Source: Octopus sinensis
Taxonomy: Eukaryota
Reading direction: 5' to 3'
Assembly: GCF_006345805.1 (NCBI RefSeq)
Contig: NC_043002.1
Coordinates: 31,682,001 to 31,746,000, forward strand
Length of the DNA stretch: 64,000 bases
Both the position numbers and the translations under genes were made by a program. Of this stretch, positions 14,079-32,944 are shown one piece after another. The notes beneath the pieces were generated by a model that did no database searches, was not told the DNA's origin, and was given only the letters and a program-made list of their open reading frames with translations. How positions within the stretch are numbered: the stretch's first letter is position 1; the number at the start of each line of letters is the position of its first letter.

Positions 14079-15730
14079 GAAATTCTGTAGAAATTATGAC
14101 TCCCCGAGGAGCTATACGACAAGTACAACGAGGATAAATCGTTAGTCTGCAATAGAAGTAACTCCAACCATTCAAAAGATAAGAACAAAACTCTTGACGA
14201 TTTCTGTGAATACATCATGAATTACCCATATCAAAATATACACAAGCAAAAAAAGAATGGCGTGAGCTGAACCAATTAAAAAGTGACAAAACAATAACAA
14301 TCAAAGAGGCTGATAAAAGGAGTGCAGTTGTCTTAATGAACACGGTATTCTATACAACTTTTGTACTATCTATATTAGAAGAGACAACATATTATGAAAA
14401 TCTCAAGCAATACATTCAACAGAAATTAATGAGGAACCTAAAATCCATATTAAACATATACAGAGAAGGGGCTCATCGACAAGGAATACGATTATATGAC
14501 CAATTTCAAATGTAAATCCAGTCAATTTTACGATATTCCCAAGATACACAAAAGTGAGAAAATACGTAACGCATGCAGGATAGCCACAGACATAATAATC
14601 AAAGCCCCTACTCCAAATGACTTCAAATTGAGACCTATAATAGCAGGTCTTACATATGAAACCCACTGCCTCAGAAACGTTTTAGATACCCTCTTAAATC
14701 ATTCCTCAAGCATCTCAAAATCTACATAAGGGATGACCTGGATATGCTCAATCACCTCCCTAAAACAATAAACAAAAAACACCCTACTAGTATCCTTCGA
14801 TGTAGTCAGCCTCTATTCTAACATCCCCACAGCCTAGGAATAGAGGCAATTCAATTCTGGCAAGAGAATCACGCCAACGAACTCTCACATCGCATCAAAA
14901 AATAATTCGTAATAGAAGGGCTAAAATTCATCTTGGGAATAAATACTTTGTCTTCAAATACAACTTCTATCGATAAAAATCGGGGACTGCGATGGGTACG
15001 AGAATGGCCCCCTCCTTTGCTAACCTAGTCATGGGATATCTAGAAATCAGTCTTTATCGTAAGGTACTAGAAAAATGCGGCAACCCTTTCTACCTCTACA
15101 TTGAAAATAACTGGAAGTGGTACCTGGATGACAGTTTCATTGTTTGGCATGGAAGTATAGAGAGACTTAAAGAAATTCAAGCACTTATAAATGGACTTGA
15201 CGTAAACATTCAATTCCCGATGGAATATAGCCATCAACAACTTGACACCCTCATTAAGAAATCCAACAACGAAATAAAAACAGATATATACTGTAAGGCC
15301 TCGAACTCCAAACAATATCTACCGTTCACCTCATGCCACCCCAGACACGCTAGAATGAATATCCCTTTCAACCCAGAAAAAGGATTTCTACTATAGTTTC
15401 TAATACAAGCACCAAGGACACACGACTACATGAACTGAAGGATACGCTCGTCACTAGGAACTACGCACCATCACAAATTGATATATGCTTTCAACGTACC
15501 CTACGCCTCAACATTCACGAACTCAAACATCCCAAATTAAAGAAGGATTTACAACCAAAAGCCCTACCATACAACCCTTTTAACAATGAAGCCTTCGAAA
15601 CCATCGTCCAAAACATTTCCCTGCTAAAAAGGGACCACAGAATGAATTTAATCCTCCAAACGCATACCATCATATAGAGCAAATGACAGTCCAAATCTAT
15701 GAAAAGTCTCCTAGTTTCGAATTTCAAGTA
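14079..15730 (+). pseudogene. Penelope-like element reverse transcriptase, frameshifted; no GIY-YIG endonuclease seen
   Basis: Motifs in order: IKEADKRSAVVLMN, FYDIPKIHK, LRPIIAG, LVSFDVVSLYSNIP, GTAMGTRMAPSFANLVMG, WYLDDSFIVW, TDIYCKASNSKQYLPFTSCHP. Multiple stops and frameshifts. Confidence 0.9.
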
Positions 15731-17126: not shown

Positions 17127-17894
17127 ATGCACATATATGCACCTATATGCACGTATAGTATGCACCTATATATACATATCATACTTAATGTATTGAAATA
17201 GCCTTTTAGAAAGACAAATAATCTAATGAATCCATTCTATAACTGATTTTAGTTACTTTGAAATGTAGTAACATTTGCCAAGGTAACTGCTATAAAGATA
17301 TATACGAAATATGTTACTTTTGAGTAAAAGCACTTTTCAAGTAAATATATAAATACATTTTTTCATAAAAAAAAGAATAGGTTGTAAAATTCGCTGTTTT
17401 CACAGAAACTATAACTGAAAGAAGCTGGTGTCTCTTGCATATGATTGCGTAAGATTTAGAAAAACTGAAAACTGTAATGATCACCGGAGGTACATAGTTG
17501 ATTATATTCATTTAAATTAGGAGAACAATAAGCCGTTAGGAATGCGAGATCGTGATTCAGTGATTAAGACATTTCGAGATTGCACTCGTGAACATTAGTG
17601 CATGTTGGTGTATAAATGCATTGGATTTTTAGAGTTGCTGGATCGAAGTTGAAATACATAAACGTAAGAACTTAAACCGTAGGTAATGCTACTGGCTGGT
17701 TGTGTATAAAATGCCGAAAGGGTAGGAGACATGAAAGATATTAGGACTAGAAAGAATTCGTTGCATGGTGTCTATTAAATACATTTTATTGAGATACAAT
17801 TGATCAATAACAAAAGAAGAATTGAAACACGAAAGAAATTAGTTGCACGAACAATTGATTGAATTTTAGCAAATAATTGAAATAGGGAGAGTAT

Positions 17895-18119
17895 ATTATT
17901 CACATTTAACGGATATTTGTCCTCATCATGTTTGTTGCTAGCACAATGTTTCGGCTGATATACCCTCCAGCCTTCAACAGATGTCGAGAGAAATTTCGAA
18001 CCTGCGTTCTCATTCCTAAGGTATTTTTCGATGTCATTATTATTCAGGTCACTGCCTGGAATTGAACTCGGAATTTGGGGGTTAATAGCCCGCACGCTTA
18101 ACATCTACGCCATATGCCC
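17895..18119 (-). mobile_element. tRNA-headed SINE carrying a hammerhead motif (family H)
   Basis: Head gggcatatggcgtag...ggctattaacccc...gagttcaattccaggcagtgacc, then gacat CTGTTGA a ggctg..cagcc GAAA cattgtgc; two more copies at 32091-32550. Confidence 0.85.
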
Positions 18120-31991: not shown

Positions 31992-32090
31992 TATATCAGA
32001 AAAAGAATGACACAGGGAAAATGGTGATGGCCATATTATGCACTTCATTAGCTTACCGGTGTTTCTGCTAAAGGGTATGTAGTGTACTAA

Positions 32091-32269
32091 TACAGTTCTA
32101 TATTTAAGAGATGAGGAATTATTTACATTATTTACATTATTTACATTTGACGGATATTTGTCCTCATCTTCTTTGTTGATAACACGTTTCGGCTAGTATA
32201 CCCTCAAGCCTTCATCAGATGTCTTAGGGAAATTCCGAACCTGTGTTCTCATTCCTACGGTATTTTTTA

Positions 32270-32304
<35 letters not shown>

Positions 32305-32550
32305 TCACTGCCTGGAATTGAACTCGGAATCTTGGGGTTAGTAGCCCATTCTCTTATCCACTACGCCATATGGCGTAGTGGTAATAATAACAACATCTAA
32401 AAACAAAATACCTTAGGAATGAGAACTCAGGTTCGAAATTTCCGCAAGACACCTGATGAAGGCTGAAGGGTATAACAGCCGAAATGGTGTGTTAACAACA
32501 AACAAGATGAGGACAAATATTCGTCAAATGTAAATAGTGTAAATAATGTA
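32091..32550. mobile_element. Head-to-head inverted pair of family H (tRNA + hammerhead) SINEs
   Basis: Minus copy 32091-32369 with tRNA head; 24-bp palindrome ccactacgccat|atggcgtagtgg; plus copy 32370-32550 lacks the tRNA body. Confidence 0.9.
32448..32493 (+). ncRNA. Minimal type I hammerhead motif of family H (stem III mutated in this copy)
   Basis: gacac CTGATGA a ggctg-aagggtataa-cagcc GAAA tggt gtgtt. Confidence 0.65.
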
Positions 32551-32944
32551 GAGTACTTATAGCTGAGTGCCTGAATAGCAACCTATAGATTTATTAGAAC
32601 CTCGAATATGTGACCCCGATACGCACACTGAGTTATTATTCTCACAATGCTTATGTGTGCGTGCGTGATTGCGTGCGTGTGTGTTTGGAGGTATATGTAA
32701 TTTCCTAATAAAAAACATGTAATCTTGCTAAAAACAGCTTCCCAGAGTTTCCTGGTCGAAATTATAATTAATCTTGTCAATTATTAAGCTGAGAACCCGA
32801 CAGTTGTCTTTTGATCAGATGACGTTTAAACAAGAGATATGTGGACAAAAAGAAGAAACAGACACGCACATAAATACACACACGCGCGCGCGTGCGCGCA
32901 CACAACACACACACACACACATACACACATATACATATATACAT

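What the first reader, a model, noticed from the sequence alone, without database searches (positions are those of the whole stretch)
17895..18119. SINE with a tRNA (Pol III) head fused to a hammerhead ribozyme
Seen: three copies (17895-18119 minus; 32091-32369 minus; 32370-32550 plus). The unit has a tRNA-like head (TGGCGTAGTGG A-box, GTTCAATTCC B-box), an (AAT)n spacer, and consensus gacac-CTGATGA-a-GGCTG/CAGCC-GAAA-c-GTT-gtgtt, a minimal type I hammerhead with almost no stem III. Each copy carries a different single lesion. Established: such minimal hammerheads occur in the terminal repeats of Penelope-like elements (PLEs), and the schistosome Sm-alpha repeat combines Pol III boxes with a hammerhead. 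Inference: this is a SINE that parasitises PLE machinery rather than a LINE and uses self-cleavage, possibly as a dimer, to define its RNA ends.
Basis: partly seen in the sequence, partly recalled or inferred. Interest (0 to 1): 0.8.

Follow-up and report, generated by a model that had tools for sequence, protein, structure and literature searches.

The report
Penelope retrotransposon with built-in tRNA promoter
The repeat is not a free-standing SINE but the terminal repeat of a Penelope-like jumping gene that carries a tRNA-derived sequence just in front of its protein start; most copies begin at that sequence, which likely serves as the element's own RNA polymerase III promoter, an arrangement I did not find described for a protein-coding retrotransposon.

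Summary
The tRNA-like head, (AAT)n and minimal hammerhead are real (1,902 exact intact-hammerhead matches in the genome, control 0). But the unit is the pseudo-LTR of a decayed, protein-coding Penelope-like element (PLE). The head lies 33 nt behind the GIY-YIG stop codon; the 'body' is in frame the first ~56 codons of the RT-endonuclease ORF, hammerhead included. Insertions carry PLE marks: head-to-head arms, two 3' ends ~34 nt apart, and the tail on exactly one arm in 47 of 51 pairs. The ribozyme sets neither end. New: copy number drops about sixfold at tRNA position +1, 35 of 70 mapped 5' ends fall at -8..+8, two near-full copies start there, and the sense strand has no shared TTTT in 2,650 columns. 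The tRNA-derived A/B boxes therefore likely mark the RNA start (Pol III, inferred). Short and long copies share one sequence, so no separate SINE family is shown. Whether the coding mRNA itself is Pol III-made is open (~0.3). The scan earlier noted tRNA-bearing, non-coding PLE-type repeats in other genomes (unchecked notes).

The parts
17892..18119 (-). Short copy 1 of the PLE pseudo-LTR: starts at tRNA position +1, ends at the short 3' end (no tail)
18045..18119 (-). tRNA-derived head of copy 1; A box 18112-18102 (mutated), B box 18067-18058
   Evidence: family-level test
18011..18013 (-). ATG that opens the PLE ORF in pLTR-ORF junction copies
   Evidence: frame shown in L185, L208 and L288
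17940..17985 (-). Minimal type I hammerhead of copy 1 (core A6 and position 16.2 changed), inside ORF codons ~10-25
32092..32372 (-). Left arm of a head-to-head insertion: starts at tRNA +4, ends at the long 3' end (with tail)
32301..32372 (-). tRNA-derived head of the left arm; A box 32368-32358, B box 32323-32314
32271..32300 (-). (AAT)n spacer between head and ORF start
32250..32252 (-). ATG of the PLE ORF in the left arm
32181..32223 (-). Minimal hammerhead of the left arm; 3-nt deletion removes the cleavage triplet, one stem II pair broken
   Evidence: deletion variant 221 exact genome matches against 1,902 intact
32092..32125 (-). PLE 'tail' (~34 nt between the two 3' ends), present on this arm only
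32367..32550 (+). Right arm of the same insertion: 16 nt of head (32367-32382), deletion, (AAT/AAC)n, ATG 32419-32421, short 3' end
32448..32493 (+). Minimal hammerhead of the right arm (positions 15.2 and U16.1 changed); stems I and II fold, z -2.2

Best explanation
The unit is the pseudo-LTR of a protein-coding Penelope-like retrotransposon, and its tRNA-derived A/B boxes likely act as an internal RNA polymerase III promoter that sets the 5' end of the element's RNA. Shown: the order GIY-YIG stop - 33 nt - tRNA-derived head - (AAT)n - ATG and first ~56 codons with the hammerhead inside - two 3' ends ~34 nt apart; in a near-full copy the same head also opens the ~2.5-kb ORF. Shown: 5' ends pile up at head positions -8..+8. 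Inferred: RNA starts a few bases before the A box and, meeting no T4 run, can run on. Inferred from the Anolis Poseidon biochemistry: the PLE protein nicks AT-rich DNA and starts reverse transcription internally at one of the two tail sites, whatever lies 3'. Priming ~250-290 nt from the RNA start (5' repeat of a full transcript, or RNA from any 3' repeat or short copy) would give the abundant SINE-like copies; priming in the 3' repeat would give the long, randomly truncated ones. Use of both DNA strands with one tail site each would give the head-to-head pairs. The hammerhead is the ordinary PLE ribozyme and is not what defines the ends.
For: 26 of 30 loci found with an RT-thumb protein query hold head and/or body within 1.5 kb (one is the query locus). 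EN directly followed by head in 14 of 20 longer loci. Body reads in frame into the ORF in L185 and L208; an 847-aa relative shares this N-terminus, hammerhead peptide included (42% over 158 aa, E 1e-30). L288 is head-ORF-head and starts at -2; L208 starts at +4. Exact 20-mer counts: ORF start 8,813; head 4,938; spacer just upstream 858; EN end 708: 5.8-fold step at +1, 1.2-fold over the next 100 nt; about 7.5-fold and flat after rough correction for match rates. 35 of 70 5' ends at -8..+8, 2 of 70 in -100..-41; 19 of the 46 ends in -15..+30 had no inverted partner detected. 49 of 53 3' ends at the two tail sites; RNA-seq loose ends at two sites 34 nt apart. 47 of 51 head-to-head pairs have one tail (p 7e-11). 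No TTTT shared by half the copies in 2,650 columns against 14 T4 positions in 2,346 columns of a Neptune-type PLE of equal T content.
Against: No direct sign of Pol III transcription: RNA-seq of a related organism label shows equal strands, a 2.3-2.9-fold step at +1 that is no larger than in the contig sets (5.3- and 8.6-fold), and no pile-up of molecule ends. The T4 absence is only suggestive: P about 0.01-0.19 by null model, GGGG is also absent, and several LINE-like ORFs have 0-1.8 T4 per kb. Many 5' junctions are fold-backs at short palindromes around +1, which could create the hot spot without an RNA end. Only 2 of 4 viewed pLTR-ORF junction copies start at the head; L185 and L287 start after the (AAT)n, and L191 has EN sequence upstream of an ORF start with the head deleted, a classic partial tandem. 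A/B boxes are not more conserved than neighbouring head columns, as expected for dead copies of one master, so selection on them is not shown. The one tested PLE promoter (D. virilis) is LINE-like and lies over an intron-containing leader (PMC2377424, abstract and discussion).
Confidence: 0.65

Rival explanations
1. The head is a dead tRNA retrocopy that landed in the PLE's 3' UTR; the 5' hot spot comes from reverse transcriptase falling off or folding back at the short palindromes around +1, and the element is transcribed by Pol II from elsewhere in the pseudo-LTR.
For: Fold-back junctions at the palindromes are common (window 32367-32372); strand-switch joints also occur at another palindrome after the hammerhead; head plus (AAT)n looks like a retrocopy with a microsatellite tail; no RNA evidence for Pol III.
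Against: Solo copies and two near-full copies start there too; the palindrome after the hammerhead collects only 9 of 158 ends; structure would be expected to stall the enzyme at the 3' edge of the head, not the 5' edge (inference); the head does not fold stably.
Confidence: 0.2
2. One reading: an independent SINE family, tRNA head fused to a borrowed PLE end, with its own master copies, using hammerhead cleavage to set its RNA ends.
For: About 85% of head-bearing copies are short and start at +1; PLE-type integration; short copies were slightly less diverged (7.3-7.7% against 8.7-10.3%, but they were picked by exact motifs, which biases this).
Against: The fusion already exists inside the coding PLE; no column separates 90 short from 69 long copies; ends do not map to the cut site; about 10% of otherwise perfect hammerheads lack the cleavage triplet; in the Anolis element cleavage was not needed for insertion (PMC11167929, main text).
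Confidence: 0.1
3. The RNA does start at the head, but by Pol II or by processing of a longer transcript at the tRNA-like 5' end (RNase P-type cut), not by Pol III.
For: A protein-coding RNA normally needs a cap; the peak sits close to the mature tRNA +1 position.
Against: Acceptor and T stems no longer pair (column letters; fold z 0.50), so a processing substrate is unlikely; many ends reach -4..-8, upstream of +1; intact A/B boxes and no T4 run fit Pol III.
Confidence: 0.1

Closest known systems
Endonuclease-positive Penelope-like elements, Penelope/Poseidon type (Poseidon of Anolis, PMC11167929, main text read; structure in PMC8557442, passages)
   Same: One ORF with RT and C-terminal GIY-YIG, pseudo-LTR overlapping the ORF start, hammerhead within the first codons, two RT start sites giving a 30-40 nt tail, inverted 5'-truncated arm.
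   Different: tRNA-derived A/B boxes in the pseudo-LTR just before the ATG, a sharp 5' hot spot there, and no shared T4 run; D. virilis Penelope has a LINE-like promoter and variable truncation of the upstream copy (PMC2377424, abstract and discussion).
Minimal PLE hammerheads (Cervera and de la Pena 2014, PMC4209133, parts 1-2 of 4 read)
   Same: Extra nucleotide between 9 and 10.1, G10.1-C11.1, 5-bp stem I, palindromic 15.2-16.2, mostly dispersed truncated copies, some in opposite-strand pairs.
   Different: None in the ribozyme itself; that paper's text as read mentions no tRNA module.
TRIMp3 elements Cassandra, Helenus, Ajax (Kojima 2024, PMC10886601, passages)
   Same: Small-RNA-derived Pol III promoter inside a terminal repeat, thought to come from a SINE-like insertion.
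   Different: They are short, non-coding LTR elements; the paper states their autonomous partners must use Pol II. Here the boxes sit in a coding PLE.
tRNA-derived SINEs, and schistosome SMalpha (PMC8490949, passages call it SINE-like with a type I hammerhead; its Pol III boxes are recalled, Ferbeyre 1998 not read)
   Same: Short copies have a tRNA head and a 3' part recognised by a retrotransposase.
   Different: The 3' part is the coding element's own ORF start, joined to the head within that element; no separate family shown.
Animal non-LTR retrozymes (PMC7229834 passages; bioRxiv 10.64898/2026.07.22.740005 part 1 of 5)
   Same: Short hammerhead-bearing PLE-derived units.
   Different: Retrozymes are head-to-tail tandem arrays cut to unit length by the ribozyme; here copies are solo or head-to-head and ends ignore the cut site.

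Membership tests
EN+ Penelope-like element | Single ORF with PLE-type RT and C-terminal GIY-YIG | tested here: met
   RT and GIY-YIG motifs read in natural ORFs; 1,696 homologues at E<=1e-10, listed ones with PF00078/PF26215, a few with PF01541. The local Pfam scan of three decayed copies found nothing.
EN+ Penelope-like element | Pseudo-LTR flanking the ORF | tested here: met
   L288 head-body-ORF-head; L208, L185 body-ORF junctions
EN+ Penelope-like element | Inverted 5' arm and 30-40 nt tail on one end | tested here: met
   47 of 51 head-to-head pairs one-tailed; 49 of 53 3' ends at two sites
EN+ Penelope-like element | Hammerhead in the pseudo-LTR | tested here: met
   (stem I and II pair probabilities 0.76-1.0)
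Penelope/Poseidon clade | No Zn-finger-like linker between RT and EN; RT groups with named Poseidon references | tested here: inconclusive
   No such linker in L161, unlike the Neptune-type ORF; no tree with named references was built
tRNA-derived SINE | tRNA-derived head with A and B boxes | tested here: met
   source tRNA unresolved (Arg, Thr, Lys, Cys score alike among 9 anticodon types sampled)
tRNA-derived SINE | Non-autonomous family with its own masters, distinct from the partner element | tested here: not met
   No diagnostic column between 90 short and 69 long copies; head is part of the coding element
tRNA-derived SINE | Pol III transcription from the head | tested here: inconclusive
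   5' ends of DNA copies fit; RNA-seq neither shows nor can show it
Minimal type I hammerhead | Core, stems I and II, palindromic stem III remnant, UH cleavage site | tested here: met
   Family form intact in 1,902 copies; self-duplex of the palindrome -5.7 kcal/mol; none of the three window arms is intact
Minimal type I hammerhead | Self-cleavage as dimer or with protein | not testable with these tools
   needs a bench assay
Non-LTR retrozyme | Head-to-tail tandem units whose ends are set by the ribozyme | tested here: not met
   ends away from the cut site; pairs are head-to-head (51) rather than tail-to-tail (1); head-to-tail pairs were seen only occasionally (e.g. L107) and not counted

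The most novel reading that the evidence does not exclude
An autonomous, protein-coding retrotransposon transcribed over its whole 3 kb by RNA polymerase III from a captured tRNA promoter, purged of terminators, that regenerates its own promoter in one reverse-transcription step and sheds thousands of SINE-like copies of its own 5' end: a SINE and its partner in one element.
Probability: 0.3. Interest if true: 0.85.

Novelty: new variant of a known kind. Interest (0 to 1): 0.6.

Why it matters
How PLEs are transcribed and rebuild their pseudo-LTR is an open question (PMC2377424, discussion: no obvious mechanism beyond tandem formation). A promoter inside the repeat and inside the RNA would solve it for this family and is directly testable. 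It also shows a route by which SINE-like repeats arise from a PLE with no separate SINE, which matters for annotation of genomes rich in unclassified SINEs. The 47-of-51 one-tail rule is a clean constraint on the PLE insertion mechanism. If the coding mRNA is Pol III-made, it would break the rule that coding retrotransposons use Pol II (as stated in PMC10886601) and raise the question of how an uncapped RNA is translated.

Tried and rejected
Rfam on the whole window, on 32080-32570 and on an intact copy: no tRNA or hammerhead match in the rows shown ([150 of 523 rows shown], 9, 45). GIY-YIG family search found Neptune-type PLEs with no DNA similarity to the unit in 50 loci: rejected as partner. 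Pfam and PDB sequence searches on decayed ORFs: nothing significant. The 3-nt-deleted hammerhead looked dominant only because the query had it; it is about 10%. Cleavage-defined ends: rejected. SINE-specific subfamily: no diagnostic column. Stem covariation within the family was not tested, since copies descend from near-identical masters; only the relative's peptide hints at a different stem II (inferred from protein). A second hammerhead family was tried as a T-run control but had no ORF. The Anolis Poseidon sequence was not in the three supplement files held, so no same-clade T-run control exists. No holder of the stretch is on record as RNA. Random 200 kb held one insertion pair, too few for statistics. 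Literature searches (listings, plus the passages cited) showed no PLE with a tRNA promoter; Repbase, Dfam and SINEBase could not be searched, and Ohshima and Okada 1994 on tRNA-derived octopus SINEs was not read, so the short form may already carry a SINE name. bioRxiv supplements were not seen.

Full report
Observation. The three arms are in the window. The window lies in a 2.72-Gb animal genome, G000:C6:31682001-31746000; its repeats reminded me of a cephalopod, which is recalled and untested. Arm 1 (18119-17892, minus) is a solo copy. Arms 2 (32372-32092, minus) and 3 (32367-32550, plus) are one head-to-head insertion joined at a 6-nt palindrome; arm 3 keeps only 16 nt of the head. None of the three hammerheads is intact and each has more than one change. 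The family form is intact: 1,902 exact matches, reversed control 0, against 221 for the 3-nt deletion carried by arm 2. Stems I and II are well populated in an intact natural copy (pair probabilities 0.76-1.0) and the stem III remnant is a palindrome able to self-pair, as described for minimal PLE hammerheads (PMC4209133, parts 1-2 of 4). The head has A and B boxes at tRNA spacing and aligns to the genome's tRNA genes well above shuffles, but no longer folds or scores as a tRNA.

What it is part of. One of the first 30 loci held a PLE reverse-transcriptase fragment directly upstream of a head. Searching the genome with it gave 7,511 first-look candidates; 26 of the 30 fetched loci hold head or body within 1.5 kb. 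Longer stretches show RT, thumb, GIY-YIG, stop codon, a 33-nt spacer, then head, (AAT)n and body; EN is directly followed by the head in 14 of 20 (four of these 20 overlap earlier loci). A second protein search reached the N-terminus. In L185 and L208 the body reads in frame from its ATG through the hammerhead and tail into the ORF, and an 847-aa relative has a homologous N-terminus. L288 is a near-full natural copy, head-ORF-head. So the 'SINE' is the pseudo-LTR of a coding PLE of about 3 kb, with the layout of the Anolis Poseidon, whose ORF also overlaps the ribozyme (PMC11167929, main text). Copies differ by about 7-10% from the column majority, and all ORFs seen are broken.

Insertion marks. 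3' ends are bimodal: 112 short, 88 tailed, 6 partial and 4 running on into the ORF among 210 copies; 49 of 53 head-anchored copies end at the two sites; RNA reads break off at two places 34 nt apart. Of 51 head-to-head pairs, 47 have the tail on one arm, 4 on neither, none on both. This is the PLE tail, which in the Anolis element lies between two internal RT start sites.

The hammerhead does not set the ends. One of 53 3' ends and 3 of 158 5' ends lie near the cut site, level with neighbouring bins; RNA-seq shows no pile-up there. In the Anolis element, ribozyme mutants inserted normally in vitro (PMC11167929).

The unusual part. Exact 20-mer counts along the element are 8,813 at the ORF start, 4,938 in the head, 858 just upstream of it and 708 a further 100 nt up. 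With rough match-rate correction from biased samples this is about 21,000, 15,000, 2,000 and 2,100 copies. In 70 head-anchored loci, 35 5' ends fall at -8..+8 of tRNA +1, 11 more in -15..-9 or +9..+30, 6 at -16..-22 (mostly fold-backs) and 18 run further up (four loci are one duplicated segment, two are arms of one insertion). L288 starts at -2 and L208 at +4. Short (90) and long (69) copies share the commonest letter at every column, so I find no separate SINE lineage. The sense strand has no TTTT shared by half the copies in 2,650 columns, whereas a Neptune-type PLE of the same T content has 14 such positions in 2,346; copy-level rates are 0.4-0.7 against 3.5-4.0 per kb. This meets a condition for Pol III read-through but is not strong alone: P 0.01-0.19 by null, GGGG is absent too, single-copy codon shuffles were not significant, and LINE-like ORFs are also T4-poor.

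Mechanism. Most likely the tRNA-derived boxes are the element's internal promoter and the RNA starts just before them (inferred, 0.65). Because PLE reverse transcription starts internally, any RNA beginning at the head yields a 250-290-nt copy, and a full transcript with the repeat at both ends can yield a copy that keeps its promoter. Against this: fold-back at palindromes around +1 could make the hot spot; two of four viewed junction copies start after the head and L191 shows a classic partial tandem; RNA-seq from a related organism label looks like passive transcription of embedded copies, with equal strands and a step at +1 no larger than in the contig sets. That the coding mRNA itself is Pol III-made I put at about 0.3.

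Comparison and novelty. It is a member of the EN+ PLEs by every feature tested; clade assignment to Penelope/Poseidon rests on domain layout, not on a tree. The closest parallel for the promoter is the TRIMp3 group of non-coding LTR elements (PMC10886601, passages). Eight literature searches listed no PLE with a tRNA-derived promoter; repeat databases could not be searched and the short form may be catalogued as a SINE. Earlier notes of this scan describe tRNA-bearing, non-coding PLE-type repeats in other animal genomes; they are unchecked and are not counted as support. Verdict: real, reinterpreted; new variant of a known kind; interest 0.6.

Noticed in passing
L301-L330; G000-wide pattern: A second, ~200-bp non-coding family with a minimal hammerhead (different stem II), 3,760 pattern matches, uniform ends in the 12 copies viewed, set in TA/CA microsatellites; no PLE ORF upstream in 30 loci. 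Candidate non-autonomous PLE derivative.
   Followed up: partly
window 14118-15674 (+): Broken fragment of a Neptune-type PLE (RT to thumb), 40-63% identical to an intact 781-aa ORF elsewhere in the genome.
   Followed up: no
L035, L038, L047, L050-L060, L066: Neptune-type PLEs with the U3-A8 hammerhead core variant downstream of the ORF; several 781-aa open ORFs with identical scores point to a young family.
   Followed up: partly
L237, L250, L253, L254; L004, L126, L024, L117: The (AAT)n spacer is often interrupted by a LINE-like element joined at different points; fits a microsatellite-targeting LINE such as Dong/R4 (recalled, not tested) and separates head from body in some copies.
   Followed up: partly
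window 33317 (-): Another hammerhead-like core with a 4-bp G/C stem II; stem I and cleavage site not examined.
   Followed up: no
L288:1225-1292: The tail end and first bases beyond it are repeated three times at the pLTR-ORF junction of the near-full copy, suggesting repeated priming or slippage at the RT start site.
   Followed up: no
runs X1-X20: The stretch is held by runs of five organism labels, and reads of label B show the same spacer-head junction, so the arrangement predates their split.
   Followed up: partly
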